UHGV virus genome: UHGV-0371278
Reading direction: 5' to 3' (one strand)
Source: a virus
Length of the DNA: 64,000 nt
The notes under the pieces were generated by a model that saw nothing but the letters and a program-made list of their open reading frames with translations, did not search any database and was not told where the DNA came from. Every line of letters starts with the position of its first letter. Position 1 is the first letter of the stretch. The translations under genes and the position numbers were made by a program. Below, piece after piece: positions 2,467-61,982 of the stretch.

Positions 2467-2697
2467 ATGGCCCGCGAAGTAACCTTCTCCACCGACAAAA
2501 ACACCACCAAGACCTACGCCACCAAGATCAACCTCGAACGCGCCATCGCCAAGGCCGAATGGCTCGGTGAAAGTGCACGCTACTTCATCCACATGACCGA
2601 GGATGGACGCCTGACCCCTGTATTCCTTCTTAACAGCCTTCCTGAGGGAGCTGGCGCGGTATGGTGCGCCCAGCACGGCTGGAACGTGGTAGGTTAA
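2467..2697 (+). CDS. hypothetical protein
   Basis: RBS AAAAGGAA 8 nt upstream of ATG. Confidence 0.55.
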   Translation: MAREVTFSTDKNTTKTYATKINLERAIAKAEWLGESARYFIHMTEDGRLTPVFLLNSLPEGAGAVWCAQHGWNVVG

Positions 2698-5750: not shown

Positions 5751-5824
5751 CCCTGCGCCGTTGCGGTATACTCTTCAGGCCGGTCGCGAAAGCAGCCGGC
5801 CTTTCGACATAAGAGGGAACAGAC

Positions 5825-15335: not shown

Positions 15336-15403
15336 GACACTAGATCGAAATAAACCCGGACGCCTTATCCTAAAGGCGTCCGGGTTTATTTCGATCTAGT
15401 GTC
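15336..15403. terminator. bidirectional terminator: 31-bp perfect inverted repeat with 6-nt loop
   Basis: GACACTAGATCGAAATAAACCCGGACGCCTT-ATCCTA-AAGGCGTCCGGGTTTATTTCGATCTAGTGTC between convergent ligase gene and the leftward lysis/tail operon. Confidence 0.7.
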
Positions 15404-36607: not shown

Positions 36608-38050
36608 TTACTCCCCCTTCAGGTAACTGTCCAGCTCGGCGCACTGCGGAGCAGAACTGGCCGAATCCTGGGCTTTCGATTGACGGCTGGCCGCGCCACG
36701 AGCAGCTTCGACGCCTTTCAGGTACATGTCGAGCGCCAGAACTTCCTGGCCCTTCTCACAGCGGATCGCCAGCTTCTTCACGCCGTAAACAGCGACTTCA
36801 GCCGAGTCCATAGCTCGGTGATCGAACGCACCAACCACGGAACTAAGACGCTTGTAGAGGCGATCTTTAGCAGCAATGTCGCGATAGAGACCGCGAATTG
36901 CTGCATCTTGCGCGTTCTTCTGTGCCATTTCAGGAAGTTCCTCGCTGTTATCCTTGCTCTCACCACCATCGTCGCTGGCTGTTTGCGAGCCGCTGAGGCT
37001 GCTCTGCTCCTCCAAACCCTCGACGACATCTTGGCCTTCGCCATGTTCTTCGTCCGCCTCTTCGGCTACCGTGCCTTCCAGTCGAGCCAGAATGGCTTTG
37101 ACCTGAGAGATCAGTTCGGCGACTTCGCCTTCACCGGACATTTCGGATGCGGCGCTTTCTTGATGCTCCGGCTCGACGGCGGCCACGGCCGGATCGACAA
37201 CGGAAGGCTCCTCTTCCTGCTCTTCGTCGTCCTTCTGGGCACCTTCCAGAGTCGGATGCTCGGTCAGGTGCTCGCTGTCGGTCGGTTCGGCCGGAGCGGC
37301 TGCGCCTTCTTGGTGCTCCGGCTCCTGCGCCTGCGCCTCTTCGCCCAGGAACTTCTGGACAGATGCAGAGAGCTTCGGCCACAGGGCGCGCAACTCTTCG
37401 ACCGCCGAATCAGCAGCTTGTCCTGCGCGCTGGACAGGAGTCTTCTGCTTGGCTTTCTTGAGACCCATTTCATTACCCTCATCGGATGGTCTGAAATCAA
37501 AACTGAGATGGTCAAAGCACAGACCATCCAATACTCTGGCCCCCGGCACACGACCCTCTTTTACCAGGGCGATGTGGTTGCCGCGCATCTTGTCCTGGAC
37601 GACTTCATAAGGCGTTCCATTCCAGATGCCGGGTTGCTCAGTGTAGCGGCAACTATAGCCTAGGGACAGATCTTCCTTGCCCCTTTCCAGCTGATTCTGC
37701 ATGTTGCGGGAATAGATGCGGATATCGCCGCGAGCCCATGGAGCTTCGTAGTAGGCGTTGGCTGTGATGATGCCTTCCACGCCTTTGTCTTCGGGAGCCA
37801 CGCCGTCGTCATCGCCGTCGAATCCCGACAGCATTTCGTGCTCGTCGATCAGCGGGAGATTCTTCAGAGATTCGATGTACTCAGGATCGCTAACGGCAGA
37901 CTCCGGACGATACACGTTGACAATCCGCATCGGATCGCCCGGAAGACCGAGTTGACCGGCAGAATATTGGAAAATGCCATAAGAGCTGATTGGACAACCC
38001 TCGATGGTCATATATCCATTTTCGTCAATTTTTCTTTTCGACTTTGCCAT
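36608..38050 (-). CDS. head scaffolding protein / putative prohead protease (DUF2213-like N-terminal domain, long acidic region)
   Basis: 480 aa, central D/E-rich low-complexity region typical of scaffolds. Confidence 0.5.
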   Translation of the reverse strand: MAKSKRKIDENGYMTIEGCPISSYGIFQYSAGQLGLPGDPMRIVNVYRPESAVSDPEYIESLKNLPLIDEHEMLSGFDGDDDGVAPEDKGVEGIITANAYYEAPWARGDIRIYSRNMQNQLERGKEDLSLGYSCRYTEQPGIWNGTPYEVVQDKMRGNHIALVKEGRVPGARVLDGLCFDHLSFDFRPSDEGNEMGLKKAKQKTPVQRAGQAADSAVEELRALWPKLSASVQKFLGEEAQAQEPEHQEGAAAPAEPTDSEHLTEHPTLEGAQKDDEEQEEEPSVVDPAVAAVEPEHQESAASEMSGEGEVAELISQVKAILARLEGTVAEEADEEHGEGQDVVEGLEEQSSLSGSQTASDDGGESKDNSEELPEMAQKNAQDAAIRGLYRDIAAKDRLYKRLSSVVGAFDHRAMDSAEVAVYGVKKLAIRCEKGQEVLALDMYLKGVEAARGAASRQSKAQDSASSAPQCAELDSYLKGE

Positions 38051-38169
38051 CGTTAATTCGAAGAGTCGTGGACTATGGCTGTATTATATACGCAGGACAT
38101 CCAAGGGTAAATAAGCGGAACAATAATTAGATGTAGCCGCGACTGTTAATTTACACTAGAATCTGTATT

Positions 38170-38570
38170 GTGATCTAATTACCGGATTTCCTCAGCCGCG
38201 AAACTGGTAACTTGGTTTCGGAAATTTGACGGGATTTGTCTAAGCCTACTGCCGCAAGACTTTCAATCTTTAAACTAATCCAAATTACCAATTTACCAAT
38301 TAAAAATTGAATTTCAATACGTATATAGCATATAGATTGACGTTATATTATAACGTTCCTTATAGATGGATTCTATTAGAACGCTACTCCTAATTTCTCA
38401 TGCTATATACTTTTGCAGCATGCGGCGAAATCGGAAATTAGGAATTTAGCATGTTAAAGCCTTGCGGCAGTAGGCTTTCCAAATTACCGCTATTTCCCCA
38501 GAAACGGTAATTTGCGGCTATCCGGACCCGAATTTTTATTCAGAATCCGGATTTTCGCGGCATCATCAGC
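38170..38570. repeat. AT-rich noncoding element flanked by imperfect ~100-bp inverted repeats (core TIR AAGCCTACTGCCGCAAG / CTTGCGGCAGTAGGCTT)
   Basis: no ORF; internal palindrome ACGTTATAttATAACGT; homologous copy at 56390..56700. Confidence 0.55.
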
Positions 38571-39765: not shown

Positions 39766-42059
39766 TTACCTCCAAATGGCTTCGTCGTGTCGCCATTTGC
39801 CAGCCAACGACGGAAGGCGGGCAGATCAACTTCATGGATGGAGCCGAGTCCATCCCAGCCCGGACGGAAGCAAGACAGATATCCAGACTTGGCGTCGTTA
39901 ATGTTGTTGAAGCCGAGCATACACTTGTGCTCGTCAAACTGACCTTCCTTGTTCACCTGGTTGACGACGAAGACCCGTTTGGATCCCAGATTCGGACCGA
40001 CGAAGCAATCGACTTCATCCCCATCAGCGCCTTTCGTTCCCTTGATGAACCCGTAGTGGTGCTTCATCTGGACTCGCCAGCTCCCGTCCTTCCCTTGCCG
40101 GATGCTTCCGCGCGGATTTTCGATCAAGGTGGTTATTCCATTCACCTTGATTCTCTGGAGTTCCGAATGATCACGAGGCCCGACGATGCGGTTGGACGAA
40201 AACACTGAAGGCTCCATGCCAGACACGCCAGGTTTGGACGTGCGCTTTAAGCCAGGCGCATCATTGTGCTCTATGTCTACGCCGTCCGGCGCCTTAATGT
40301 CGTCCAGGTCTTGGAGCTTCGACAAAAGATCGACCAACAAGTTCCGCAGCTCGGCCTTGGGGTCCGGCCGCGACGGCGGTTCAGCGGCCTCGCTGGCCCC
40401 TTCCTCGGCCGCTTTCGCGAGGGGCTTAGTCGCGCGTGGAGCGGCGGGAACCGGGCCGCCTGCGCCCTCTACGGCTCCCGCCTGGGCTTCGGCTCGCTCG
40501 GCTTCGCCTTTCGCCTTGACCGACTGTGCACCGGCCTTCTCGAATTCGGCCAGGTTTTCCGGAGACATGCCCGGTTCGGTTTCTGCCTGATCGTCGGTGA
40601 GTCGGTTGTAGCCGGAACGCGGATCGTCGCGCAGACGCTCGCGAACTTCATCCGGAGACACAACGCCAGAGTTGATGTAGATTTCGTCGGTAGCGGCTTT
40701 CTTGTTGTTCAATTCGGCTTGTTGCTGGCTGGACGTGGAGTCTACAGGATTCCAGACGATTTCCAGCTGCACATCGATTTCTTCCGACTTCGCCAGAAGC
40801 AAATAGTGACGTTCGAGAAGTGGGTCGAATATGTGCTCCTGAATGGATTCCAACTCTTCGTGATAAGAAATCGTCTCATGCTCGCCAGTAGCATTGAAAC
40901 CTTTCGGCGAAGTGCCGAGCAACTTCGTGGCTGGAGTCTTGGCGATGGCTGCGACCAGCTGATATTGGTTCATGATGACGCTGTCGAAGTCGGCCAAGTT
41001 CGTATCGAACTGCTCCATGGCTTCATCAATACCCAAAACTTTCACGCCGTGGTTATCGCGATTGGCGATCCAGAACGCCAGGCGGGCGTTGAAGGCATCT
41101 TCATTCGCAATGGCCTTTTCCACATCAACATGAATGGTGCTGGTTCGCTTCGACATCGCCAGCAGCGGCGCTTCGTTCGCGGTCCGCTCGGCCGCATATA
41201 CGCGCTCATAAATGCGCTGGGTAAGCGGGATGCCGCCGAAGAGATATGTTGGCTTCAGGATATCTGGCGGCTGCGGCCCGCGAACGACTACCAGGTGGCT
41301 GCGGTGATATTTCTTCCCGCTGATGATCCAAAAATCGGGCTCATAGAAGTGTTCTGCAGACGGGTCGGCCGTCGAGGCTGCTGTGAGCTGCGGCATCGCC
41401 CAATACGGGTCTATCTGGGAGATTCCCTTGTAAGAGCCGGGGGTGATTCCATCGGGGTTGAATGGCTTCTCATAGTAGTCCGGATCGTCGGACTCAACGA
41501 CGAACAGTGCGATGCGAACGCCGAAGACGTTTTTGAATCGGTTCAACTCGACGATGTTGTCTTTGACGCGAAACTCCATGTCGCGCCGAGCGATCAGCGC
41601 GCTTTGCTCATCGGATAGCTTCCGGCCGTCCGACTTGAGTTCCCATCCGTTCCGTGCTGCGTCTTCGCCTGACATGGAGCAGGCTTTGTCCACCAACCAG
41701 TGCTGAGAAATGATGGCGCAAGCTTGGTGTCCGATGAAGCCTTGGGAGTTGTACCAGTCCTGCAACATGGTCGGAACTACATAGGGATTCTGGCCGCCCG
41801 CAGCAGCCTTCGCGGCCGGAGTCGGTCCGTCACCATACGCGCTGTCCATTGCGACGGATAGGCCCGGTTCCAGAAAATCCTTCACGCTACGGATGACCGG
41901 GGTTTTCTCCGGCTCGACGTTCCAGCCGCGAATCCTTCCCAGCTTGATCATGGGGTCGAGCGGATCGTGTTGAGGGATTTGTGCGACTTTCTCCGGCGCC
42001 GATTCAGAACAGGCAGCATTATCCTTTTTGCGCCCGAATATCCAGGAAAGTTTAAACAT
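39762..42059 (-). CDS. portal protein with C-terminal inorganic pyrophosphatase-like domain
   Basis: first gene of late operon, followed by MuF-like gene; C-terminal HHYGFIKGTKGADGDEVDCFV resembles PPase NYGYI..T...DGDPVDVLV. Confidence 0.65.
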   Translation of the reverse strand: MFKLSWIFGRKKDNAACSESAPEKVAQIPQHDPLDPMIKLGRIRGWNVEPEKTPVIRSVKDFLEPGLSVAMDSAYGDGPTPAAKAAAGGQNPYVVPTMLQDWYNSQGFIGHQACAIISQHWLVDKACSMSGEDAARNGWELKSDGRKLSDEQSALIARRDMEFRVKDNIVELNRFKNVFGVRIALFVVESDDPDYYEKPFNPDGITPGSYKGISQIDPYWAMPQLTAASTADPSAEHFYEPDFWIISGKKYHRSHLVVVRGPQPPDILKPTYLFGGIPLTQRIYERVYAAERTANEAPLLAMSKRTSTIHVDVEKAIANEDAFNARLAFWIANRDNHGVKVLGIDEAMEQFDTNLADFDSVIMNQYQLVAAIAKTPATKLLGTSPKGFNATGEHETISYHEELESIQEHIFDPLLERHYLLLAKSEEIDVQLEIVWNPVDSTSSQQQAELNNKKAATDEIYINSGVVSPDEVRERLRDDPRSGYNRLTDDQAETEPGMSPENLAEFEKAGAQSVKAKGEAERAEAQAGAVEGAGGPVPAAPRATKPLAKAAEEGASEAAEPPSRPDPKAELRNLLVDLLSKLQDLDDIKAPDGVDIEHNDAPGLKRTSKPGVSGMEPSVFSSNRIVGPRDHSELQRIKVNGITTLIENPRGSIRQGKDGSWRVQMKHHYGFIKGTKGADGDEVDCFVGPNLGSKRVFVVNQVNKEGQFDEHKCMLGFNNINDAKSGYLSCFRPGWDGLGSIHEVDLPAFRRWLANGDTTKPFGGK

Positions 42060-42237
42060 TTTAATTCCATGCGGTTGCTGGTTGTGTGCACTTATTATAG
42101 GGGAAACATCAAACGTTCAAAAGAGATTCAAACATATACATCACATTAACAGTCGCAACTAATCAGTTATGAGAAAATAATTCTTACGGGAACTTTTCGG
42201 CAGATTAGACTCTAATTATCAACCAATGGAGATTAAC

Positions 42238-42639
42238 ATGAATCCTCTTCTTCCTATCGTACATATCGTGTTGAAGGACGGCGAAGTTCTGGGCGTGTTC
42301 GATTGCGACAAGTCGGCGCGTCTGTACTGTAACGTGAAAGATGGCGTTTTGGATTCCTGGGTGGTGGAATCGCCGAATAGCTCGCGCTCGCGCCTCGTCA
42401 CGAAAGAGCGCTATGAAGTTGGCGATCACGTCATGTATCGCGACGAGCATGGAGAAGGACACGGCCGCATCCTGGCGGTCGAGCCTCGCGGCGAACGTGC
42501 TCGTGATGAGAAAGAGCTGTACAACCTGTATCAGATCAGCAGCGACGATCCATCTGTGGAAATTTGGATGCTCGACGCAGACATCATCGGCATTTATCCC
42601 GACGAAAAGCGCTTCACTTCTGAAGAGCAGATGGAATAA
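42238..42639 (+). CDS. hypothetical protein
   Basis: GGAGA 8 nt upstream of ATG 42238. Confidence 0.5.
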   Translation: MNPLLPIVHIVLKDGEVLGVFDCDKSARLYCNVKDGVLDSWVVESPNSSRSRLVTKERYEVGDHVMYRDEHGEGHGRILAVEPRGERARDEKELYNLYQISSDDPSVEIWMLDADIIGIYPDEKRFTSEEQME

Positions 42640-46292: not shown

Positions 46293-46345
46293 TGCTTTAC
46301 TCCACTCTGGATGAAGGCAGAATAGCTCCATCGAAACGCGAAACC
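46293..46345 (+). promoter_or_regulatory. early promoter (TGCTTTACT, CAGAAT) plus conserved leader CTCCATCGAAACGCGAAACC
   Basis: repeat family. Confidence 0.45.
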
Positions 46346-46366
46346 TTCAAACAAAAGGAACCGACC

Positions 46367-47146
46367 ATGACCGACCAGAACGAATTCACTCCTGAAGCCA
46401 TCGAGAAGGCGAAAGATCGCATTCGCAAGCTGACCGCAATGGCGGCCGACTCGTCCAGTCCGCACGAAGCGGCCATCGCGGCCGAGCGGGTGAAGAAGTT
46501 AAAGGACAAATATGATCTTCACGACTTCGAAGCGACCGGCGAGATTCGCGAAGAATTCGACGAGCAAATTGCTACCCGTTACTATTCCGCAATCCCGAAC
46601 TGGATGAAGTTCTTCTCGGTGGCCGTGGCGACGTACAATGATTGCATCATGGATTTCGTCGGCGGCATCAACAATCACCGAGCATCGGCTAAGGCGTCCA
46701 GGAGCGCTCGCGACGGCAGCACCACCAAGCGCTGGGGTCATGCCGTTCGATTTAAAGGCTACAAATCTGACGTTGAGCTGGCGGTAAACATGTTCAACTC
46801 CCTGGTCGATGCAGTAGACCGTCTGTGCCGGGAATATCAGAAGGCTCAAGGTTTCGAGCGGTTCAACGTCAAGGTCGCCGCGCAATTTAAGCTCGCCGCG
46901 ACCCAGGAAATCAGCTATCGCCTCCAATCCATCACCCGGAAACGTATGGAGCTGGTTTCTTCGGCCGGAACGTCTCTGGTGGTGGTTAAGGAAGCTGCGG
47001 TCCACGAACATTTCGGCGATCCGGGTTACAAGAAGTCGAATGTTACCAAACTCATGCGTCTGGACGACAGCGACGGTCGGCGCGCCTACACTGCCGGGAC
47101 CAATGCCGGTCGCAACATGGAAATCGTTCGGTCGGTGGAGGATTAA
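46367..47146 (+). CDS. hypothetical protein (DUF2786-like N-terminal helix)
   Basis: KAKDRIRKLTAMAADSSSPHEAAIAAERVKKL; RBS AAAAGGAA. Confidence 0.5.
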   Translation: MTDQNEFTPEAIEKAKDRIRKLTAMAADSSSPHEAAIAAERVKKLKDKYDLHDFEATGEIREEFDEQIATRYYSAIPNWMKFFSVAVATYNDCIMDFVGGINNHRASAKASRSARDGSTTKRWGHAVRFKGYKSDVELAVNMFNSLVDAVDRLCREYQKAQGFERFNVKVAAQFKLAATQEISYRLQSITRKRMELVSSAGTSLVVVKEAAVHEHFGDPGYKKSNVTKLMRLDDSDGRRAYTAGTNAGRNMEIVRSVED

Positions 47147-47148
47147 CC

Positions 47149-47583
47149 ATGGGCTTTCCTAGCGACAAAGTGATGCTGCGAATCGTCCAGTCCATCCTCG
47201 CGATCCTCATCGGGATCGCTTGGGCCTGCGCCGACTATGGAGTCGTGGCCGCCGAACTTCCTCCATCGCTGCAGGCCCATCCCGCAAGGCCAGGGTACAG
47301 CGAAGTCTCGGCCCGCGACCCTAGGCTGGTCGAGGCCGAAAAAGCGCGGGAAGAGGCCTTAGAATATGTCCTGTCGCTGCGCCCGGAAGTTATCGAGGCG
47401 AAAGCCCGCTTCGCGGCCGAGGCGGCGCAGCAAGGAATGTCCACTAAGAAGTATGCTGAGGTGCATAGCCAAGCCAGAATGCTCACAGGAACGCTATTGG
47501 CGTTTGCAGTATTTATGTTGGCTGGAACGCTATTGACGTTTGCAGTCTTCTTGTTCATCTTCATCAAAACGACCAGGCTTTGA
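47149..47583 (+). CDS. membrane protein with internal 33-nt tandem duplication
   Basis: GTLLAFAVFML / GTLLTFAVFLF. Confidence 0.45.
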   Translation: MGFPSDKVMLRIVQSILAILIGIAWACADYGVVAAELPPSLQAHPARPGYSEVSARDPRLVEAEKAREEALEYVLSLRPEVIEAKARFAAEAAQQGMSTKKYAEVHSQARMLTGTLLAFAVFMLAGTLLTFAVFLFIFIKTTRL

Positions 47584-48613: not shown

Positions 48614-50059
48614 TTAGAAGTCGAAGAAGCCTTTGGGCTTCCGGATCGGCAGAATGGCCGACATAATCACCGAGTCAGCGATGTTCGGCGACTTGATCTT
48701 GCGTTTCTCGCGCATATCCTTCTTGGACTCGACTTTGAACCGGCCGTTCATGTCCAGGTCTTTGCGCGGCGACGAAAGTTCGATACACAGCTGATTTAGT
48801 TTGTCCGGGTGAATCGTTTCAGAGTTGATCGAGATCAATTCGTCAAATGGATAAACCTTTCCATGCTCAACCGCTTCATAAGTCTTCCGGAATCTGGTCG
48901 CGACTTCTTCCCACTTCTGCGCCTTGATGTTGCTGAAGTGGTCTTTGTTCTTGATCGTCGTGTGCGGCAGCTTCATGTAAACGTCATCAGGCTTATCGAC
49001 AGCGCCACCCGCATTGAATGGATCATAGATCAGTTTGAAGTCGGGGCTGGCATCGTTCAACTCGGCAAACTTCGAACCGACGTGGGCGCCGACGCCGATG
49101 GAGTCATAAGTGACCGAGGCGCCTTTCATCTTCGCAAGATTGTAAACGCGACTGGACGACTTAAGCAGCTCATCTTCCAGACCATCCCATTCGTCCACTT
49201 CCATGATGACGTTGCCGTGCATGAGAGTAGTGGCGTTCGCATCCTCGCCGTCGTCCGCAACGTCGAAGCCGATGCGCTTCGATCCGGCCGGCTCCCAGCC
49301 GAGTTTCTTGTGGGCGTCGATGGCCGCGAAAATGAACTTGAGGTTGATGACGGATTTGTCGCCTCCAGTCTTCGGAATCCCGCCATAAATGTGCTCGGCC
49401 TGCTCCCGGTCGCGTTCATAGGCTTCGTGAATCACTTTGAGCATCGTCTCGCTTAGGAACGGATTTTCGTTCCAGTTGATCATCTTGACGCAGGAGTCTT
49501 TCGGTGGTTTGACCACGAAGTTCTGATACACGAAATCGGTGACTTCGTTAGGGTTGAAGATGATCCAGATTTCAGAGTTTTCTTTCCGGATGGTCGGCTC
49601 GATAACTTCCCACTGCTCCTGTGTCAGGTAGTGAGCTTCCTCAAGCCAGAGAATGTCGATGCCTTCGGTGGACTTGATTTCCGACAGGTTACGGGCGATC
49701 CCATAAAACAGGAACTCTGAGCCGGTAATCTTGTGCTTGATGGAGTTCTTGGTGAAGATGAATTCGCCATTATACTCTGAGTTTTCGATCTTGTCCTTGA
49801 CCAACGTGTAGACCGATTCGCTGATGCGGTTCTGAAACTGGCGAGCACAGAGGAACTTGAGTCTATAGTTGGCCGCGAGGTAAACGGCGATACCGCCTGC
49901 GTCGTGTGACTTCGAAGACGCCCGGCCGCCATAAATGACTTTGTAACGGGCGCGAGTTCGCCAGACCGCTCGCAGTGCAGGGTTGAGTTTGTACATTCTA
50001 ATCAATCCGGTGTTAGCAATAGGTCGAGTATATCGACGCCGCAACAGACGGTCGAGCAC
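48614..50059 (-). CDS. terminase large subunit (PBSX/Terminase_3-like)
   Basis: KLNPALRAVW...ARYKVIYGGRASSKS Walker A; DILWLEEAHY; GTG start at 50059 (alternative ATG 49996). Confidence 0.85.
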   Translation of the reverse strand: MLDRLLRRRYTRPIANTGLIRMYKLNPALRAVWRTRARYKVIYGGRASSKSHDAGGIAVYLAANYRLKFLCARQFQNRISESVYTLVKDKIENSEYNGEFIFTKNSIKHKITGSEFLFYGIARNLSEIKSTEGIDILWLEEAHYLTQEQWEVIEPTIRKENSEIWIIFNPNEVTDFVYQNFVVKPPKDSCVKMINWNENPFLSETMLKVIHEAYERDREQAEHIYGGIPKTGGDKSVINLKFIFAAIDAHKKLGWEPAGSKRIGFDVADDGEDANATTLMHGNVIMEVDEWDGLEDELLKSSSRVYNLAKMKGASVTYDSIGVGAHVGSKFAELNDASPDFKLIYDPFNAGGAVDKPDDVYMKLPHTTIKNKDHFSNIKAQKWEEVATRFRKTYEAVEHGKVYPFDELISINSETIHPDKLNQLCIELSSPRKDLDMNGRFKVESKKDMREKRKIKSPNIADSVIMSAILPIRKPKGFFDF

Positions 50060-50097: not shown

Positions 50098-50127
50098 CTT
50101 TACTTCCATTCTGACCAACGGCATAAT
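50098..50127 (+). promoter_or_regulatory. early promoter TTTACT-17-CATAAT
   Basis: repeat family; leader CTCTTCATCGAAACGAAC follows. Confidence 0.45.
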
Positions 50128-50166
50128 CTCTTCATCGAAACGAACAAACACCTGGAGGGTAAGACG

Positions 50167-50415: not shown

Positions 50416-50447
50416 TGCTTTACTTCCATTCTGAATAGCGTCATAAT
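50416..50447 (+). promoter_or_regulatory. early promoter TGCTTTACTT-17-CATAAT
   Basis: repeat family; leader CTCTTCATCGAAACGCGAAAC. Confidence 0.45.
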
Positions 50448-50492
50448 CTCTTCATCGAAACGCGAAACACTCCAAAACAGAGGAACGCAGAA

Positions 50493-55329: not shown

Positions 55330-55902
55330 CTAAATGGGGTTGGCGCGGTCTTCCTCGGTCGGTTCCGGCGTCGGGGACGGGAAATCGCCCTCTTCGCCGT
55401 TCTGTACATAGCCATTGGCTTCGGCCGCTGCAGCGACGGTCGCGGTTTGAGCCTCGGCTTCCGATGCGTAGAAGTCTGCCAATCCGCGACCGATCCTGGT
55501 TTTGCCAGACTCGTCAACGAACGTGATTTCGGCCAGAACGTTCAATTCCTTGATGGCCGACAGACGGCTGGAGTCCTTGACAGTGGGATCGCGAACCATC
55601 TGGAGAAGTTCGTGAAGCGCCGTCTTTGGGTTCCACAGATCTGCTGTTCTGGTCGCATTCAGCTTGGCCTTGAACTGCTTGCGATAGTACGGGTTGGACT
55701 CCATTGCGAAGATGCGAGCCTGGGCCGGTCCGTCCATATGCTCTTCGCCCCAGATCGCCCGGAAGACCCGCCAGGAGCTATAGCCTTGAACGCGCAGGTC
55801 GATGTACAGATCGAAACGCTTCTGGTTGATCGCCGCGAACTGCGGATCAGCGAATTCTTGTGGCGTGACTAAATCGTCGGGTCTGTAGGATTTGGCGGTC
55901 AT
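55330..55902 (-). CDS. hypothetical protein, candidate terminase small subunit
   Basis: ~190 aa; weak resemblance to TerS HTH region (LRVQGYSSWRVF); long noncoding leader upstream; ATG 55902 chosen over Pro-rich upstream extension. Confidence 0.3.
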   Translation of the reverse strand: MTAKSYRPDDLVTPQEFADPQFAAINQKRFDLYIDLRVQGYSSWRVFRAIWGEEHMDGPAQARIFAMESNPYYRKQFKAKLNATRTADLWNPKTALHELLQMVRDPTVKDSSRLSAIKELNVLAEITFVDESGKTRIGRGLADFYASEAEAQTATVAAAAEANGYVQNGEEGDFPSPTPEPTEEDRANPI

Positions 55903-56389
55903 TTGTTGCTGCGTCCCTGGAGTTCGATTCTTGGACCATCGCGGTGGCTTGTTTGGCGGATGGGGCCTGGTGCTTTGCCGCGACACTGAGTATGGCGCGA
56001 TTGTACTATGGGGCCAGGGAGCACGTCTATGGGCTGCTGGTGGTTGGCCTGTAGGTCTGGGTGGGTTTGATGGTGAATGAGTGTTAGGTGGTGTTATAGG
56101 ATGTTATATGGGCGGTCCGCTGGCGAGTGAGGATCGGATTGGCTGGTGGCGGGCGATGGTGGCGGTGAGTGTTTGGATTGAATGTTAAATCGAATGTTAG
56201 GAATATGTCCAGATGAGCGATTCTGCCTTGTGGCCAAATTTCCGGTTCCGCTCGTCGAGTTTTGGTCACTGCCGCTTAGTCCGCCGTGGTGTTGCCGCTG
56301 CCCATGGTTTGGAAGGACGGAAGTTTCCGGCGACCCTGCCGCGAGTTGAGCGGAATCGGAAACTTGACTGGTAGTGTACAGGCTTAGTG

Positions 56390-56700
56390 CCGCGAGGCTT
56401 TCAAACCTAAAACCATAACAAATTACCAAATTCCCATTAATTTTATTAATTTTAAAGATAGGTAACGTACGTGATAGATTTTTTCTATTAGGATTGTGCA
56501 ATCGATTTTCGCTGTAGAATAGTTTTAAACCATGCTCGGAAAACTGGGAATTCGGGAAAACGGCCGCAAACCCACGCGGCAGTAGGCCTCCCGAATTCCC
56601 AGTCAGAATAGCAATCCAGGAATTTGCGGCTATTTCCCACAAAAAATCCACCTCAAACCCACAATTTCTCAACATTTCACGCAAAATCCAACCATCATAC
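56390..56700. repeat. second copy of AT-rich IR-flanked element (homologous to 38170..38570)
   Basis: shared GCGGCAGTAGGC, AATTTGCGGCTAT, CTTTCAA..CAAATTACCAA blocks. Confidence 0.5.
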
Positions 56701-56873
56701 ACTCCAGACCAATACCGAAAATCTATCAATTCCCCACAATACACCGCCGCCACAACACCCTAATTCCCACATAGCTTTCGAACCTCACCCGTTCACAGGC
56801 TAAATTAATGTTCTCCGCGCCAAAGAAAAGACCGCCCGAAGGCGGCCTAATCCAATCCATCTGCATCAGTACA

Positions 56874-58604
56874 CTAGAAATCCTCGCCCAATATCTTGGC
56901 TCGCTCTGCCTTGACCCTGCGGATATGCGACATTGCGTCATCATCAGAGACAGCGGCGTCATTCTTCCTGACCATATATATCAGCGCATCGTTGAATGAC
57001 GGCAAGGACCCAATCATTTCCTGACCGGCAACTTTATCAGCAGGCAGTAGCCATCCATTCAGGCCGTTCTTATTCGGAATGAATCCAAGCGATTTCAGGT
57101 GTGGAGTTAAATGGCGAGAAATCGGCTTCTTCCTGGCGAGAATATCGAACCACTTCAAGATTTCCACCGTATTGACACGCCACCCAGGAGTCTTGGAATT
57201 CCCACCAGGCTTAATCTCTTCAAACTCGCAACTGATCAGGACATTGATCAGATACATATCAATCGTATCGTCGCGAACCACGCCACGCGCATTCTCCATT
57301 TCCGAAATAGAGAAGTTCTGGACTTCGCGGTTTGCTTCCGACACCATATTCAGGTAGCCATCGACGCCATGCTCTTCGATCCAGGCGCGGCACTCGGCCA
57401 TCGCTTGCCAGAATTTGCGGCCGAAGTCGGTGAAGTCCACTTTGAACGGTTCGTTGCCGTCGCCTGGCTTTACCCAGTTCGGCTTTCCATCCTCATCGGG
57501 CAGTTGCGCCACGAACATTGGATAGAAACGGCGGTTACCAGAGTCGTCCCGCTGGAGTCCATCGTAGCCGTTGCCGTCCATGATGGTGATCCATTGTCGC
57601 TTGATCGTCTCGCCCGGCTCAAACTTCTGGTCGAATGTATCAGAAGATCGCACCAGGAACTCTTTGATGCGTTCCATGTCGCCCTTTTTGAAGCCGGACA
57701 TTTCACCGACGTTCGCAATAACCGAGTTACCGGTGATGTTGCGCAGGAATGGTGTCTGGTCATGCCGGCTCAGGTCGAGCTGGACTGGAGCCAGATCGCG
57801 ACCGCCCGACAGTTCCTTGCATATCAGCAAGCCGAAATAGGATTTACCCGCATCTTGCCCACCAATCAACGCCAGAGAAATCGGCGCCGAAATTCCCGGA
57901 TAATTGATGCGACAGTACAGGCTCAGCCAGAAATACTTGCTCACCATCCGGTTCAATTCGGTGTCGAACGGCTTAAACAGATCGATCAGCAGCGTGCCAA
58001 TTCGCTCTTCGCCGTCCCACTCCGGTATCTTCTTCTCAAACGTCTCGATCAGAGAGTTGCGGCGATATCGACGCGCCCAAACGCAGCAAGTCTCAATCGT
58101 CTTCTTGATCGAGGGATCGTCCAAGGCCGCAGCCGCGAGGGCGCCCATCAGGTCAATCGGGTCGAGGGTCTTGTTGTTGAACGCTACGCCGCGATGGTCC
58201 ACCAGCCGGCCGCGAAACTCATCGAAGTGCGGATGCGGGACGGTTCCATCGCCCTTGCAGAACAAAGTATCGTACACCGCGAGATAGTTGCTGTCGGAAG
58301 TCGAGCTGTATTTCGTGATGAAGTCATCGAACGGCCCTTTCACGACCCGGCTGACCGGAAGATCGAACGCCTGGTCGAGCATCAACAACCGCGCTCGCTT
58401 CCTCAAGTCTGGTTCCGCATACGCCTCGGCGTATCTTGCCGCCTTTTGTGCGCGATGCGTTTCGTTCCTCGCAATCGCATCATCGGCCGCCTTGCTCGCG
58501 GCGGTCATCAAAGGGTCCATTCCAGCATCTTCTATCTGTGTGAGATCAAACTCACTGGACCCTGATTCGCCATCATCAAAAATATTATCTTCGTCGATAA
58601 TCAT
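56874..58604 (-). CDS. VirE-like / P4-alpha C-terminal-type NTPase (primase-associated helicase)
   Basis: Walker A LIGGQDAGKSYF; 576 aa. Confidence 0.6.
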   Translation of the reverse strand: MIIDEDNIFDDGESGSSEFDLTQIEDAGMDPLMTAASKAADDAIARNETHRAQKAARYAEAYAEPDLRKRARLLMLDQAFDLPVSRVVKGPFDDFITKYSSTSDSNYLAVYDTLFCKGDGTVPHPHFDEFRGRLVDHRGVAFNNKTLDPIDLMGALAAAALDDPSIKKTIETCCVWARRYRRNSLIETFEKKIPEWDGEERIGTLLIDLFKPFDTELNRMVSKYFWLSLYCRINYPGISAPISLALIGGQDAGKSYFGLLICKELSGGRDLAPVQLDLSRHDQTPFLRNITGNSVIANVGEMSGFKKGDMERIKEFLVRSSDTFDQKFEPGETIKRQWITIMDGNGYDGLQRDDSGNRRFYPMFVAQLPDEDGKPNWVKPGDGNEPFKVDFTDFGRKFWQAMAECRAWIEEHGVDGYLNMVSEANREVQNFSISEMENARGVVRDDTIDMYLINVLISCEFEEIKPGGNSKTPGWRVNTVEILKWFDILARKKPISRHLTPHLKSLGFIPNKNGLNGWLLPADKVAGQEMIGSLPSFNDALIYMVRKNDAAVSDDDAMSHIRRVKAERAKILGEDF

Positions 58605-58942: not shown

Positions 58943-60019
58943 CTACTCCTCGCCGATATGACGGCGGTTGATGCGTTCAAGTTGTTCGACAATATACGGC
59001 AGGACGACTTCATCGGTGAAGGCCGCCCATGTCCGTCGATGCTCTTTGCGGCAAGTATCGTGCCCGCATCCGAACACATATTCGTGCTCGGCGCCAGGTA
59101 TCGGTCCGCGAAAGTATGCGCCGAAAGGATCGCCATTTGTGTGCTCGTCGCCCCAGGGACAGCGGATGCGGTATTTGCCGGACATATTCTGCTGGACCTG
59201 GCCGCCTGCCGCTTCTCCCATCTTGTATTTCGTGCAGATGTGCTCGGCATACTTCAACCATACTTGGTCATACAACCAATCGTCGCGGTTTATCTCCACC
59301 TTCTTCATCTGTGGCATGATGATGCGGACGCCAAAGGCCTGGGCGATTTCCTCTGGTGAGTAGCGCTTGGAATAGTCTGCGTGATACAGGCGAACCAGTT
59401 CGGGCTTGCCGTTTTCGTCTGCATATTTGAAGTTGCCGTCTTTCCCGCGCTTGTTGTTGAAGCCGAAAGGCATGCGACCATAACGGCTGACGTCTTTGAC
59501 GGTGTTGTCGCCGCCTTTCTTTAGCACCTGGTCCACGAACGAATAGAGCAGCGCCTTGAACTGGAGCATGTGGGCCATCGGCTCTTTGAAGAAATACCAG
59601 AACTGGTAGTTGTTCGGCGAAGTCTCCACAATCGCGGTCGGCTCCAGGCGTTCGCGGAACTCGTCGCGGTCGAAGTCGCCTTTGGAACCTTTGCCGGAGC
59701 CGATGTCATCGACCATTAACGCCAGGCCGTGGCCGAAAGAGGCCTCGCCGCGCCAGTATCGCATCTGGCCGGTCTTCGGGTTGGGCGTCTTGATGGATGA
59801 CGAGATACAGGCATATGCGTTGGATCTGGAATTGATGTACTTGCCTTCCTTCCAGGGAACTGGCCACCAGCCTGCGTTGAGCTTGCGGCCGTTTTCGTCG
59901 GTCTGGACTGTGGCCTCTTCAGCGTAGCCGACCATCACCCGTTCGTCGTCCGGAATCCCTCTGCCGAGTTCTCGCAGGAATTCTTCGGCCTGAGCCAGTC
60001 TTATTTCGTGAGGCTTCAT
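58943..60019 (-). CDS. DNA primase-polymerase (AEP family prim-pol) with C-terminal zinc-binding motif
   Basis: GHGLALMVDDIGSGKGS catalytic Asp motif; CPWGDEH...GCGHDTC; ATG 60019 after GGAG. Confidence 0.55.
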   Translation of the reverse strand: MKPHEIRLAQAEEFLRELGRGIPDDERVMVGYAEEATVQTDENGRKLNAGWWPVPWKEGKYINSRSNAYACISSSIKTPNPKTGQMRYWRGEASFGHGLALMVDDIGSGKGSKGDFDRDEFRERLEPTAIVETSPNNYQFWYFFKEPMAHMLQFKALLYSFVDQVLKKGGDNTVKDVSRYGRMPFGFNNKRGKDGNFKYADENGKPELVRLYHADYSKRYSPEEIAQAFGVRIIMPQMKKVEINRDDWLYDQVWLKYAEHICTKYKMGEAAGGQVQQNMSGKYRIRCPWGDEHTNGDPFGAYFRGPIPGAEHEYVFGCGHDTCRKEHRRTWAAFTDEVVLPYIVEQLERINRRHIGEE

Positions 60020-60465
60020 GCAAGTCGCTCCGGGCGCCCCTTGCGTCGAGGCACTTCCACGAACTGTCGCGCAGCACTCGCCTTTCTGGCGGAGTTTAGT
60101 CCATCTTCGTGGACCCGACTCCATGCTTCCATGATCTTGTGCTGCCGCGCCTTTTCGAGCGCCGGGGGAATCTTCGCATCGTCGATGCCGCGCACCCACA
60201 TGAACATCAGGAACGTCGCCAGGTCCAAGAGGTTGTTCTCATTTCCCTTCAGCGCATGTTCGGCGAATCCGTTGATCAGAATATCTTCGTCGCAGTCGAT
60301 CCAGCCGCCTCGGCCTTTATCGCGGGAGCGCTGTAACTTCTGGCGGATCGCCGTTGCGAACATGGACAGGGCATACTCGTCCTGAGCTTCAGGCTTTGCC
60401 TTCCTGAGAACGTCGAGGCTGGTCATGATGACTCCATCTACTGGTGAAGGTTTCTTCTGTTCCAT
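60016..60465 (-). CDS. hypothetical protein
   Basis: AAGGAA RBS. Confidence 0.45.
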   Translation of the reverse strand: MEQKKPSPVDGVIMTSLDVLRKAKPEAQDEYALSMFATAIRQKLQRSRDKGRGGWIDCDEDILINGFAEHALKGNENNLLDLATFLMFMWVRGIDDAKIPPALEKARQHKIMEAWSRVHEDGLNSARKASAARQFVEVPRRKGRPERLA

Positions 60466-60620: not shown

Positions 60621-60983
60621 TCATAACGCAGGGACTGACCGACATAGGTCATCTGCGATGTCGGGTCCATCGGTACGAGCTTCCACCCCCTCCGGCACGC
60701 TGTGCTGAGCCGAGCTGCCGGGCGCGGCGATAAACTTCCCATCTTCAAACGCCGTAGCCAATTCGGTCGCTACCCGCTGACACTGCTTCAAGTGGCCGAC
60801 GAACAGTTCACGCGTTCCATCCCCCGCACGCACGCAGTATGGCCAGAAACCCTTCCCAGTTTTTTCTACGCGGTACCGCTCAAGCCCGAACACCTCCGGC
60901 ACAACATCCGCCCTTGCGCGCAGTGCTGCGACTTCCTGCCTTAGCGCCTGGGCCTCGACCTGCCGGCGGCGCTCTGCCTGCAC
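60621..60983 (-). pseudogene. in-frame continuation of upstream gene after a single amber codon (possible pseudogene fragment or readthrough extension)
   Basis: same frame as 60999..61982; carries another AQHSVPE repeat. Confidence 0.3.
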
Positions 60984-60998
60984 GTCGAGGCCCAGGCG

Positions 60999-61982
60999 CT
61001 AAGGCACCGAGTTGCCGGGCGCGGCGGCGAGCAGTTCGCGAGCCGCCAACAGAACCTGCTCTGTAGCCTCCATGCTCGTGGTGTATTCCGTCCGACTCGC
61101 TGCAAGATCGGTAACACGCTCGACGAACCGGTAGTCGAGAGTCCAGCCCTGTTCTTTTTCCTGCTCAGAAGCTTCCGGCACGCTGTGCAGGGCCTGGGTG
61201 AGCACGTCGGCGGATATGGCGCGCAAAAAGTTCTGAATTGCTCGCATATCTTCCTCGCTGGGTTCGTTACGCAGATACAGCACTACAGCTCTGGGATGTT
61301 CGGCATCGCGACCGATGCCAGATATTTCCGGCACGCTGTGCTGAGCCTTGGCGACCGCTAGCGCCTCGTTGAGCCGGAACCCTTCGTGCACCCAGTCCGT
61401 CAACTTCCCTTCCAGCTCCGCGACCCTGGCCAAGGCGGCGTCGCGTTCCACTTTATAACGACAATAAGGATGGCCGTATTCATCGCCGACTACGCCGTCA
61501 CAATAGCTCGCGGCCAGCTCGCTCCCGCGCTTTTCGGATTCGGCCAGTGCCTTTTCCAGCCGGCCGATTTCTTCAATGGCGTCTGCAAGCCTATTCGCAT
61601 CGGTCTTTTCGAACTTAGGGGCAATTTGAGGATTATCTTCGATTGGCTTCTGCGACCATTCGCTGATCCACCCCTGGCCGCGGCCATTGCAAACAGTACA
61701 CTTCCCCCGAAGCAACGTCTGACCGATTCCCTTGCAAGCGGCGCACTTCCCCAGAAACCCGACTTCGACGCGCTCAATCCCGGCCTTGGTGAGCGTCCAT
61801 TCCATCCTAAGATGGCCGGTGCCTGCCCAGTTTTCGAATTTTTTCGCCTTTACATACCCCATCTGCCGAAGTTCATTTAGCGCCTGATTGTTGGGGCCTG
61901 TGAAGGCCGGCTGATCGGGATTGTTATACAGATATAACAATGCGGTTTGATGGTGGTGATTCAAAGTCGGTTTATTATACAT
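60999..61982 (-). CDS. hypothetical protein with DnaJ-type CxxCxGxG zinc finger pair, coiled coil and AQHSVPE-type repeats
   Basis: GAGGTG RBS before ATG 61982; GKCAACKGIG...GKCTVCNGRG. Confidence 0.45.
   Translation of the reverse strand: MYNKPTLNHHHQTALLYLYNNPDQPAFTGPNNQALNELRQMGYVKAKKFENWAGTGHLRMEWTLTKAGIERVEVGFLGKCAACKGIGQTLLRGKCTVCNGRGQGWISEWSQKPIEDNPQIAPKFEKTDANRLADAIEEIGRLEKALAESEKRGSELAASYCDGVVGDEYGHPYCRYKVERDAALARVAELEGKLTDWVHEGFRLNEALAVAKAQHSVPEISGIGRDAEHPRAVVLYLRNEPSEEDMRAIQNFLRAISADVLTQALHSVPEASEQEKEQGWTLDYRFVERVTDLAASRTEYTTSMEATEQVLLAARELLAAAPGNSVP

What the first reader, a model, noticed from the sequence alone, without database searches (positions are those of the whole stretch)
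56390..56700. Second copy of the IR-flanked AT-rich element, upstream of the TerS-like gene
It shares the blocks GGCTTAGTGCCGCGAGGCTTTCAAACC..CAAATTACCAA, CATGCTCGGAAAACTGGGAATTCGG, GCGGCAGTAGGCC and AATTTGCGGCTATTTCCC with the 38.2-38.6 kb element, in the same orientation. Both copies lie immediately upstream (in the direction of transcription) of leftward genes, suggesting a duplicated regulatory cassette. It contains the ACGTACGT palindrome.
Basis: seen in the sequence. Interest (0 to 1): 0.55.

Follow-up and report, generated by a model that had tools for sequence, protein, structure and literature searches.

The report
Packaging-start and origin-like repeat module
The flagged DNA is a real second copy of a repeat-flanked AT-rich element in a PB1-like Pseudomonas phage. 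It is where DNA packaging starts, just upstream of the small-terminase gene. It looks like a replication origin placed next to its helicase gene, with a twin copy in front of the head genes, and related phage genera keep the same two-site layout.

Summary
Element B (56,356-56,640) and element A (38,218-38,521) are true paralogues (local score 62 vs 20 +/- 2.5 in shuffles). They are the only two copies in the window.

The window is a Pbunavirus. B lies in an 890-bp non-coding gap between a SaPI-Rep-like helicase gene and terS (96% identical to E217 TerS, PDB 7UXE).

- **Packaging start:** published data on close relatives put the packaging-series end at window 56,504/56,505. That is inside B's AT-rich spacer, between its inverted arms.
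- **Promoter:** a sigma70-type start site (14-1 P040) maps to the same spacer.
- **Element A:** it has no mapped start site and no known DNA end.
- **Other genera:** Wifcevirus, Myosmarvirus and Bcepfunavirus have the same two loci, helicase-[B-like]-terS and MuF-[A-like]-prohead protease. Each genus has its own short repeats (iterons), shared by its two loci. PhageTerm termini fall between the B-like arms.

Best reading: B is an origin-type iteron/AT-rich module (pri-rep-ori order, as in SaPIs) that also holds the pac cut and a terS promoter. A is a second origin-like site. A TerS-binding array is the main rival. The "duplicated promoter cassette" reading is only partly supported. The pac location was already known roughly; the conserved twin-site architecture appears undescribed.

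The parts
56356..56640 (.). Element B as a whole: flank block, inverted arms, iterons and AT-rich spacer
   Evidence: Alignment with A. The left half is nearly invariant in six Pbunaviruses.
56380..56401 (.). B inverted-repeat arm, terS-proximal (AGGCTTAGTGCCGCGAGGCTTT)
   Evidence: the repeat finder I1. Invariant core GCTTAGTGCCGC.
56568..56589 (.). B inverted-repeat arm, helicase-proximal (AAACCCACGCGGCAGTAGGCCT). It is A-type here. In 14-1, SN and DP1 it is GCGGCACTAAG, the exact complement of the left-arm core.
56402..56567 (.). AT-rich spacer between the arms. Candidate DNA-unwinding region; it contains the packaging cut.
   Evidence: GC content 0.417 for 56,401-56,800 against about 0.55 for the genome. 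Alignment.
56504..56505 (-). Packaging-series (pac) end. Packaged DNA runs leftward through terS.
   Evidence: JG024 long reads start at 59,376 +/- 5, and an XbaI pac fragment fits that site. This maps to window 56,504 through. The records of Ab27, Ab28, Ab29, Pa193 and PA11P1 end or begin at this nucleotide. PA8P1 terS starts at nt 607 of its record. Essoh 2015 reported reads with a fixed end.
56405..56451 (-). Homologue of the 14-1 promoter P040 (-35 TTAATG at 56,440-56,435, -10 TATGGT at 56,417-56,412). Its spacer consists of the GGAATTTGGTAATTTG iterons.
   Evidence: Table S3 and TU045 of the 14-1 ONT-cappable-seq study. The -10 region is variable and is not found by the consensus scan.
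56463..56491 (.). Central block shared with A (TAACGT..ATAGA-N5-TCTATTAG). It includes the non-conserved ACGTACGT at 56,465-56,472.
56543..56603 (.). Perfect 15-bp hairpin (ACTGGGAATTCGGGA / TCCCGAATTCCCAGT) that encloses the helicase-proximal arm
   Evidence: (I4).
56621..56633 (+). AATTTGCGGCTAT block, 33 nt after the arm core, as in A
56610..56830 (-). Upstream flank. G/T-rich on the terS-sense strand (GC skew +0.57).
   Evidence: The same skew switch is seen in MyoSmar and, more weakly, in SP13.
56040..56375 (-). Downstream flank, which is the long terS leader. C/A-rich on the sense strand (GC skew -0.37).
56829..56848 (-). Intrinsic terminator of the helicase gene
   Evidence: Annotated in PB1, Epa6 and JG024.
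56000..56029 (-). Promoter directly in front of terS (homologue of 14-1 P041), outside the repeated sequence
55330..55899 (-). terS (small terminase)
   Evidence: About 96% identical to E217 TerS, PDB 7UXE.
56874..58604 (-). VapE-type helicase, homologous to the SaPI Rep. Candidate iteron-binding initiator.
   Evidence: Pfam VapE. phmmer to 7PDS, E 1e-13. AF2 model with pLDDT 88. Foldseek to 7PDS, E 6e-17, near full length.
58943..60199 (-). RepB-type primase (the 'pri' of the pri-rep-ori order)
   Evidence: Pfam PF16793, E 1.4e-59.
38218..38521 (.). Element A, the paralogous copy upstream of the prohead-protease operon
   Evidence: As single-stranded DNA it folds with z = -9.1.
38242..38263 (.). 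A inverted-repeat arm, protease-proximal
   Evidence: It covaries with the other arm (AAG/CTT versus GAG/CTC) in 14 copies.
38456..38477 (.). A inverted-repeat arm, distal
38480..38514 (.). Iteron hairpin CAAATTACCG-N15-CGGTAATTTG
   Evidence: I5. GGDAATT motif clustering.
38083..38111 (-). Promoter of the protease operon (homologue of 14-1 P014), outside the repeated sequence

Best explanation
**Element B is a composite control region of a PB1-like phage.** Two inverted arms (core GCYTASTGCCGC) and clusters of short GGDAATT-type repeats bracket a ~170-bp AT-rich spacer. The module sits immediately downstream of a primase gene and a SaPI-Rep-like self-loading helicase gene. This is the pri-rep-ori arrangement of staphylococcal pathogenicity islands.

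**Proposed mechanism.** I infer that the helicase's C-terminal domain binds the repeats on both sides and opens the AT-rich spacer to start replication.

**Other functions in the same spacer.**
- It holds the terminase series-initiation cut (pac end at 56,504/56,505). Headful packaging proceeds from there leftward through terS.
- It holds a sigma70-type promoter reading into terS. The promoter's spacer is made of the repeats.

**Element A.** A is a second copy of the same arm / AT-rich / arm scaffold in front of the head-gene operon. It lacks the cut-site sequence and a mapped promoter. It most likely binds the same phage protein as a second origin-like site, comparable to SPP1 oriL/oriR or P4 ori/crr.

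**Shown versus inferred.**
- Shown here: the repeat anatomy, the synteny, the conservation across genera and the helicase homology.
- Shown by others' experiments on relatives: the position of the DNA end and of the transcription start.
- Inferred: helicase binding, origin function and the role of A.
For: **Paralogy**
- The A/B similarity is significant.
- GGDAATT motifs: 12 of the 25 in 64 kb lie in the two elements.

**pac end**
- JG024 long-read starts at 59,376 and a pac restriction fragment map to window 56,504.
- Five records start or end at that nucleotide.
- Essoh 2015 reported reads with a fixed end. The SCUT-S1 PhageTerm pac site lies 'in an AT-rich region'.
- TerL is Sf6-like, a headful type.

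**Promoter**
- 14-1 P040 and TU045.

**Origin-type reading**
- RepB-type primase followed by a VapE-type helicase.
- The helicase matches SaPI1 Rep1, by phmmer at E 1e-13 and by Foldseek at E 6e-17 over about 490-517 columns, from a model with pLDDT 88.
- SaPI origins are iterons immediately downstream of rep, half on each side of an AT-rich centre and in opposite orientation, bound by the Rep C-terminal winged helix.

**Conservation of the two-site layout with genus-specific repeats**
- Wifcevirus: A-like versus B-like scores 84 against 24 +/- 2.6 in shuffles; iteron ATCCGTATC.
- Myosmarvirus: 62 against 23 +/- 2.8; iteron ACTTTTCGTTTT.
- Bcepfunavirus: the 8-mer CTTAGTTA occurs 8 times and 6 times at the two loci and nowhere else in about 38 kb; blastn E 4e-14.
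- PhageTerm termini of Mansfield, SP13, MyoSmar and MTx lie between the B-like arms.
- Two further metagenomic relatives show primase, helicase, a 600-640-bp gap and then terS. One of these gaps (L035) has iterons around an AT-rich core; the other shows only an AT-rich dip.
Against: - No replication data exist for any of these phages.
- Cumulative GC-skew minima reported for Pbunaviruses lie elsewhere.
- The local skew switch at B has the sign opposite to that expected at a bacterial-type origin.
- The terminus lies between the arms in three genera, which fits a terminase recognition array equally well.
- About 230 bp and a terminator separate the helicase stop codon from the first arm. In Wifcevirus SP13 and in XcP1, small genes lie directly upstream of the gap instead of the helicase gene.
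- XcP1 (Carpasinavirus) shows no A/B similarity.
- Banzai PhageTerm saw no significant end peaks.
- All experimental evidence comes from relatives that are 87-97% identical, not from this phage.
Confidence: 0.55

Rival explanations
1. The arms and short repeats are small-terminase (TerS) recognition sites, as in P1 pac or SPP1 pacL/pacR. TerS assembles on both sides of the spacer and TerL cuts in between. Element A would be a second TerS-binding site that is not cut. It could serve for synapsis or sensing, as proposed for the T4 gp16 pac-like pair, or to couple head-gene expression to packaging.
For: - The virion DNA end lies between the arms in Pbunavirus, Wifcevirus and Myosmarvirus. It is 52-75 nt from the upstream arm in all three.
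- The element is directly upstream of terS in every genus.
- The repeats differ by genus, as expected for packaging specificity.
Against: - E217 TerS (96% identical) showed no appreciable DNA binding in vitro.
- A-like copies have more, and more perfect, repeats than B-like copies, yet they are not genome ends. In the DTR genera a cut at A would split the genome.
- No repeats occur at the right DTR boundary of SP13.
- A dedicated iteron-binding initiator homologue is encoded next door.
Confidence: 0.27
2. This is the first reader's view: a duplicated transcriptional regulatory cassette. The two copies would be promoter/operator or upstream-activator regions that co-regulate the head operon and terS through one phage regulator.
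For: - 14-1 TSS P040 lies inside B.
- The repeats fill the P040 spacer, so a bound protein would occlude the promoter.
- The JG024 authors predicted a sigma70 promoter in A's core.
- Both loci precede late morphogenesis and packaging genes in four genera.
Against: - No TSS was mapped in A.
- The P040 -10 region is the most variable part of B's conserved half.
- The gene-proximal promoters P014 and P041 are outside the repeats.
- Arrays of 6-16 repeats in inverted arms around a 100-200-bp AT-rich spacer are unusual for activator sites.
- Other late operons lack the repeats.
Confidence: 0.12
3. The elements are structured RNA or single-stranded DNA elements. The long-range stem, especially in A, would act as an RNase III processing site, a terminator or insulator, or a cruciform between operons.
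For: - A folds with z = -9.1.
- The 18-22-bp stem is kept in all copies, with one compensatory A-T to G-C change.
- B has a perfect 15-bp hairpin.
Against: - There is only one covarying pair, split between two clades.
- B's arms are mismatched in this phage (82% complementary), and in B the base facing the variable left-arm position does not change with it.
- Rfam has no match.
- No terminator signal is predicted in A.
- Palindrome-templated correction could explain matched arms without any RNA function.
Confidence: 0.04
4. The elements are mobile or invertible DNA: a MITE-like element with terminal inverted repeats, or an invertible promoter segment.
For: Both elements have terminal inverted repeats around an AT-rich segment, there are two copies per genome, and a promoter lies between B's arms.
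Against: - Both copies sit at fixed syntenic positions in about 300 Pbunavirus records, with no genuine presence/absence or orientation polymorphism. The one record lacking A also lacks the essential protease gene.
- There are no target-site duplications, by direct reading.
- The same positions are occupied in other genera by unrelated sequences.
- No recombinase gene was seen among the genes examined.
Confidence: 0.02

Closest known systems
SaPI pri-rep-ori replication module (Staphylococcus aureus pathogenicity islands; Ubeda 2007/2012, Qiao 2022)
   Same: - The gene order is the same: primase, then helicase/initiator, then a non-coding repeat module.
- The helicase is a near full-length structural homologue of SaPI1 Rep1.
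- Short repeats lie on both sides of an AT-rich centre in opposite orientation.
   Different: - The repeats here are longer (7-12 nt) and are embedded in 22-27-nt inverted arms.
- A terminator and a ~230-bp G/T-rich tract separate the helicase gene from the module.
- There are two copies per genome.
- The module also contains a virion DNA end and a promoter.
- Origin activity and helicase binding are untested.
pac regions of headful phages (P1 pac; SPP1 pacL-pacC-pacR), recalled from my own knowledge
   Same: - The series-initiation cut lies in a spacer flanked by repeated short motifs.
- The region lies next to terS and overlaps a promoter.
- The genome is circularly permuted and packaged by the headful mechanism.
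   Different: - TerS binding is not shown, and was not detected for E217 TerS.
- A second, better-formed copy is not cut.
- Sister genera use the same spot as a fixed DTR end rather than a pac site.
Two-site origin systems: SPP1 oriL/oriR and P4 ori/crr, recalled from my own knowledge
   Same: Two separated loci in one phage genome share initiator-binding repeats next to AT-rich DNA. One locus lies near the replication genes and the other lies elsewhere.
   Different: There is no sequence or protein homology to G38P. The P4 alpha comparison was not tested here. The function of the second site is unknown.
14-1 promoter P040 and the Pbunavirus 'AT-rich pac site' in the literature
   Same: It is the same locus. 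P040 maps to about 56,401. The JG024 pac site at 59,376 maps to 56,504. The Ab27-29 genome ends map to the same nucleotide. The SCUT-S1 authors noted that the pac site lies in an AT-rich region that could be an origin.
   Different: None of the papers I could read describes the inverted arms, the repeats, the paralogous copy A or their conservation in other genera. Ceyssens 2009 was not available.

Membership tests
pac site of a headful-packaging phage | A fixed double-strand end in a fraction of virion DNA at this position | tested here: met
   Published end data from close relatives were mapped onto the window. JG024 59,376 equals window 56,504. Five records begin or end at that nucleotide. 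No reads from this phage itself were available.
pac site of a headful-packaging phage | Lies in or next to terS, and the TerL is of a headful type | tested here: met
   The terS start is 605 bp downstream of the end. TerL matches E217 TerL and Sf6 gp2.
pac site of a headful-packaging phage | Sequence-specific binding by TerS and cleavage by terminase | not testable with these tools
   A review reports no appreciable DNA binding by E217 TerS in vitro. Whether pac DNA was used in that experiment is unknown.
Iteron-type replication origin of a self-loading (SaPI Rep-like) helicase | Short repeats on both sides of an AT-rich centre, in opposite orientation | tested here: met
   Inverted arms and GGDAATT clusters in B and A. 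The same holds in three other genera.
Iteron-type replication origin of a self-loading (SaPI Rep-like) helicase | Located immediately downstream of the initiator helicase gene, which follows a primase gene | tested here: met
   Met for B: RepB primase, then VapE helicase, then a terminator, then B. The same order is seen in BcepF1, MyoSmar (one small ORF between), L035 and L036. Not met for A. Not met for SP13 or XcP1, where small genes lie directly upstream.
Iteron-type replication origin of a self-loading (SaPI Rep-like) helicase | The helicase is homologous to Rep, including a C-terminal DNA-binding domain | tested here: met
   phmmer to 7PDS, E 1e-13. Foldseek to 7PDS, E 6e-17 with 490-517 aligned columns. 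The model's C-terminal helix-helix-strand-strand pattern at 479-521 is consistent with a winged helix. No per-domain alignment was inspected.
Iteron-type replication origin of a self-loading (SaPI Rep-like) helicase | Initiator binding, melting and replication start at the site | not testable with these tools
   No replication data exist. GC-skew evidence is unhelpful or contrary.
sigma70 promoter cassette | A mapped transcription start with -35 and -10 elements inside the repeated sequence | tested here: inconclusive
   B: 14-1 P040 lies inside the element, but the -10 has diverged in this phage and the scan finds nothing. A: no TSS in the 14-1 data, only a weak consensus match.
MITE / mobile element | Target-site duplications and variable presence among genomes | tested here: not met
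   There are no duplications flanking the arms. Both copies sit at fixed positions in about 300 records.
Invertible promoter segment | Both orientations of the segment are found, and a cognate recombinase is present | tested here: not met
   All sequences aligned are collinear. No recombinase was seen among the genes examined.
Known RNA family (Rfam) | A match at the gathering score | tested here: not met
   There were 0 matches in the whole window.

The most novel reading that the evidence does not exclude
PB1-like phages of at least four genera carry twin origin-like repeat modules bound by their SaPI-Rep-like helicase. Genome packaging, or the fixed genome end, starts inside one of them. 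Terminase would then be guided by an initiator-loaded or melted origin, or share its recognition scaffold, rather than by a TerS-specific pac sequence. That would explain why E217 TerS shows no DNA binding in vitro. The second module in front of the head genes would couple replication or packaging state to capsid gene expression.
Probability: 0.2. Interest if true: 0.75.

Novelty: new variant of a known kind. Interest (0 to 1): 0.55.

Why it matters
Pbunaviruses are among the phages most used in Pseudomonas therapy and synthetic rebooting, yet reports on their genome ends conflict and their origin of replication is unknown.

- Fixing the packaging start to a defined nucleotide inside a recognisable module gives engineers a cis element that must be kept intact. 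The second copy (A) should be kept as well.
- It gives a concrete candidate origin and a candidate initiator.
- It offers a testable link between replication initiation and packaging initiation.
- The conserved two-site layout, with repeats specific to each genus, is a natural experiment for working out which protein reads these sites and how specificity co-evolves.

Tried and rejected
- **Known RNAs:** Rfam and tRNA scans found nothing.
- **IHF site:** the consensus WATCAANNNNTTR has no match in the window.
- **Protein-coding reading of B:** the 219-aa ORF 56,094-56,753 is annotated as 'hypothetical protein' in many records. I rejected it because its length and frame differ among six Pbunaviruses.
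- **Mobile element or invertible segment:** rejected because positions and orientation are fixed.
- **Metagenome hit with the same arms (L023):** a chance match inside a bacterial gene.
- **FBPa35 record lacking A:** this looked like evidence that A is dispensable, but the record also lacks the essential protease gene, so it is probably misassembled.
- **XcP1 (Carpasinavirus):** no A/B similarity.
- **tabernarius:** the protease-upstream gap is only 153 bp, and I did not analyse it further.
- **Neighbouring small ORFs next to A (68 and 45 aa):** they have no informative family.
- **Word-indexed protein search with the helicase C-terminus alone:** too few homologues, so I modelled the full-length protein instead.
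- **Papers not held:** Ceyssens 2009 and Lokareddy 2022.
- **Covariation test of A's stem:** limited by low divergence.

Full report
**1. What the window is**

Megablast of both regions finds about 300 Pbunavirus (PB1-like Pseudomonas aeruginosa myophage) genomes at 85-99% identity. The window is in the reverse orientation relative to the PB1, 14-1 and JG024 records.

The gene content fits this assignment:
- prohead protease at 36,608-38,050 (-);
- MuF-type head protein and portal upstream of it;
- TerL at 48,614-50,059 (-), matching E217 TerL and Sf6 gp2;
- a RepB-type primase at 58,943-60,199 (-) and a VapE-type helicase at 56,874-58,604 (-).

The "TerS-like" gene at 55,330-55,899 (-) is about 96% identical to the E217 small terminase whose decamer structure is solved, PDB 7UXE.

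**2.

Element B (56,356-56,640) and element A (38,218-38,521) align in the same orientation. They share a 100-nt stretch at 70% identity (D5). The local alignment score is 62, against 20.1 +/- 2.5 for 500 dinucleotide shuffles, and no other part of the window scores above 32.

The motifs GCGGCAGTAGGC, AATTTGCGGCTAT and TCGGAAAYTTGAC occur exactly only in these two elements. The first two are 33 nt apart in both copies.

Each element is bracketed by 22-nt inverted arms:
- A: 38,242-38,263 / 38,456-38,477, 95% complementary;
- B: 56,380-56,401 / 56,568-56,589, 82% complementary.

A short motif, GGDAATT, occurs 25 times in the 64 kb, and 12 of those lie inside the two elements.

The ACGTACGT palindrome at 56,465-56,472 is private to this phage. 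The other five Pbunaviruses aligned have ACGTCCGT.

**3. Anatomy and conservation within the genus**

B sits in an 890-bp non-coding gap. Read in the direction of transcription (leftward in the window), the order is:
1. helicase stop codon and intrinsic terminator (56,829-56,848);
2. a tract that is strongly G/T-rich on the sense strand (GC skew +0.57);
3. the helicase-proximal arm, enclosed in a perfect 15-bp hairpin;
4. a ~166-bp AT-rich spacer;
5. the terS-proximal arm;
6. a C/A-rich leader (GC skew -0.37);
7. a second promoter, then terS.

In six Pbunaviruses the terS-proximal half of B (56,300-56,526) is almost invariant. The exception is a ~13-nt patch that coincides with a promoter -10 region.

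The helicase-proximal half comes in two haplotypes. In 14-1, SN and DP1 the distal arm core is GCGGCACTAAG, the exact complement of the proximal-arm core. In this window, PB1 and JG024 it is GCGGCAGTAGG, the arm type of element A.

Element A is present in essentially all records at 84-100% identity. Its arms covary in 14 copies examined: GCCGC-AAG with CTT-GCGGC, or GCCGC-GAG with CTC-GCGGC. As a single strand it folds far better than shuffles, z = -9.1. B in this phage folds less well, z = -2.6.

The ORF that many records annotate across B is not conserved in frame or length.

**4. Experimental data from relatives, mapped onto the window**

*(a) Transcription.*
ONT-cappable-seq of 14-1 lists TSS P040 at 59,399 (+), sigma70 type, with upstream sequence ATTAATAAAATTAATAGTAATTTGGTAATTTGGTATACTTTAGTATTTGA. 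This is the minus strand of about 56,402-56,451, inside B's spacer. Its transcription unit TU045 covers gp76, which is terS.

P041 (59,807) lies directly in front of terS. P014 (13,257) lies in front of the protease gene. Both fall outside the repeated sequence, at about 56,000-56,029 and 38,083-38,111. No TSS was reported inside A.

*(b) DNA ends.*
- Essoh et al. found reads with a single fixed end and no terminal repeat in Ab27, Ab28 and Ab29.
- Ipoutcha et al. found 36 of 161 long reads of JG024 starting at 59,376 +/- 5, a matching XbaI pac fragment, and a coverage dip just upstream.
- Through the BLAST coordinates and the gap-free alignment, JG024 59,376 is window 56,504.
- The records of Ab27, Ab28, Ab29, Pa193 and PA11P1 begin or end at exactly that nucleotide. 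PA8P1 starts 606 nt before terS.
- Banzai PhageTerm saw no strong peaks but also concluded headful packaging.

The packaging-series end therefore lies in B's spacer. It is 64 nt from the helicase-proximal arm and 103 nt from the terS-proximal arm. Packaging proceeds toward terS.

**5. The same two-site layout in other genera**

TerS homologues at 34-47% identity identify distant relatives.

*B-like loci.*
- In Myosmarvirus, 26-nt arms (92% complementary, 263 nt apart) enclose the PhageTerm DTR boundary of MyoSmar. MTx and KKP 3709 records start about 14 nt away.
- In Wifcevirus, 27-nt arms (85% complementary, 115 nt apart) enclose the DTR start of SP13. Nucleotide 1 of the PhageTerm-oriented Mansfield record is the same position.

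*A-like loci.*
In each genus the ~400-bp gap between MuF plus small ORFs and the prohead protease gene is significantly similar to that genus's terS-upstream region.

| Genus | A-like vs B-like | Shuffle control | Shared repeat |
|---|---|---|---|
| Myosmarvirus | score 62 | 23 +/- 2.8 | ACTTTTCGTTTT |
| Wifcevirus | score 84 | 24 +/- 2.6 | ATCCGTATC, many copies; perfect 22-nt arms 102 nt apart in the A-like locus |
| Bcepfunavirus BcepF1 | 96-nt blastn hit, E 4e-14 | - | 8-mer CTTAGTTA, 8 and 6 copies at the two loci, none elsewhere in about 38 kb |

The BcepF1 B-like locus lies between an unannotated terS homologue and the primase-helicase gene.

Two metagenomic relatives also show primase, helicase, a ~600-640-bp gap with an AT-rich dip, and then terS. 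One of them (L035) has inverted AATTGCGG repeats.

Carpasinavirus XcP1 lacks the A/B similarity.

The repeat sequences are unrelated between genera but shared between the two loci within a genus. The simplest reading is that one phage-encoded, co-evolving DNA-binding protein reads both loci.

**6. Which protein?**

The helicase is a homologue of the SaPI Rep self-loading initiator helicase:
- phmmer to 7PDS gives E 1e-13;
- an AlphaFold model (pLDDT 88) has 7PDS as by far its best Foldseek match, E 6e-17, with about 490-517 aligned columns of a ~454-residue target.

For SaPIs, Qiao et al. summarise the following. The Rep C-terminal winged helix binds 5-6-nt iterons. Six to twelve iterons lie immediately downstream of rep. 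An AT-rich region sits in the middle. Iterons on the two sides point in opposite directions. With the RepB-type primase gene upstream, B reproduces that pri-rep-ori order.

This is why I rank an origin-type module as the best explanation for the scaffold, with the pac cut and a promoter embedded in it.

The main rival is a TerS recognition array. Its support is that the DNA end lies between the arms in three genera. Against it:
- E217 TerS shows no DNA binding in vitro;
- the A-like copies are richer and more perfect yet uncut;
- the right DTR boundary in SP13 has no repeats.

The two readings are not exclusive.

**7. What is shown and what is inferred**

- Shown here: the paralogy, the arm and repeat anatomy, the synteny, cross-genus conservation with genus-specific repeats, the identity of TerS and TerL, and the Rep-like fold of the helicase.
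- Shown by others and mapped here: the pac end and the P040 start site.
- Inferred: helicase binding to the repeats, origin activity, any function of A, and any coupling of replication to packaging.

GC-skew evidence does not support an origin at B, and no replication data exist.

**8. Verdict**

Its promoter-cassette interpretation captures only a secondary, poorly conserved feature.

B's role as the Pbunavirus packaging start was already roughly known. The inverted-arm and repeat architecture, the twin copy A, and their conservation in at least four genera appear undescribed in the literature I could read.

Noticed in passing
window 2,391-2,485; 46,294-46,371; 50,098-50,142; 50,418-50,492 (+ strand): A repeated ~45-90-nt cassette, CTTTACTTCC...CATAATCTCTTCATCGAAACGCGAAAC...AAAGGAA (D4/D6). 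It matches the sigma70-type promoters P001, P006 and P028 of 14-1, followed by a shared leader and ribosome-binding site.
   Followed up: partly
window 474-900 (+ strand, ORF 426-1,271): 33-nt tandem coding repeats rich in AAG/GAA/GCC, giving a Lys/Glu/Ala-rich repeat protein (D1-D3). The 14-1 internal TSS and TTS calls P033 and T010 fall in the homologous repeat.
   Followed up: no
window 15,336-15,403 and 60,928-61,015: A perfect 31-nt palindrome, probably a bidirectional terminator between convergent genes, and a 40-nt, 85% complementary inverted repeat with an 8-nt loop (I2 and I1).
   Followed up: no
window 56,040-56,375 and 56,610-56,830; L004 2,275-2,960; L020 1,495-2,346: A sharp switch in strand composition across the packaging start. 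On the terS-sense strand the upstream side is G/T-rich and the downstream side is C/A-rich. It is conserved in Pbunavirus and Myosmarvirus and weaker in Wifcevirus. The cause is unexplained. The C-rich, G-poor leader resembles a Rho-utilisation tract.
   Followed up: partly
window 56,094-56,753 (- strand): A 219-aa ORF spans the whole of element B and is annotated as 'hypothetical protein' in many GenBank records, for example JG024 PJG24_078. Its frame and length are not conserved among six Pbunaviruses, so it is probably spurious.
   Followed up: yes
L021 (ON857938.1, phage FBPa35) 5,840-6,648: This 'complete genome' record lacks element A, the prohead protease gene and part of the MuF gene. 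It is probably an assembly collapse across the AT-rich element rather than a viable deletion. FBPa21 similarly lacks B.
   Followed up: partly
L034 (BcepF1) 89-499 (- strand): The BcepF1 terS homologue (34% identity, E 8e-25) is not annotated. The record annotates small plus-strand ORFs (.058-.060) over it instead.
   Followed up: partly
L020 (SP13) about 5,760-5,830, near the right end of the terminal repeat: Two direct copies of AATCATTCGCTTTCGAAT lie just inside the right boundary of the 3.9-kb direct terminal repeat. They are a different repeat from the ATCCGTATC iterons at the left boundary.
   Followed up: no
window 47,479-47,550: A 36-nt tandem duplication at 81% identity (D20).
   Followed up: no
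window 42,001-42,400: The third AT-poor dip in GC content in the window (GC 0.43). It corresponds to the divergent 14-1 promoters P012 and P013 and carries none of the A/B motifs.
   Followed up: partly
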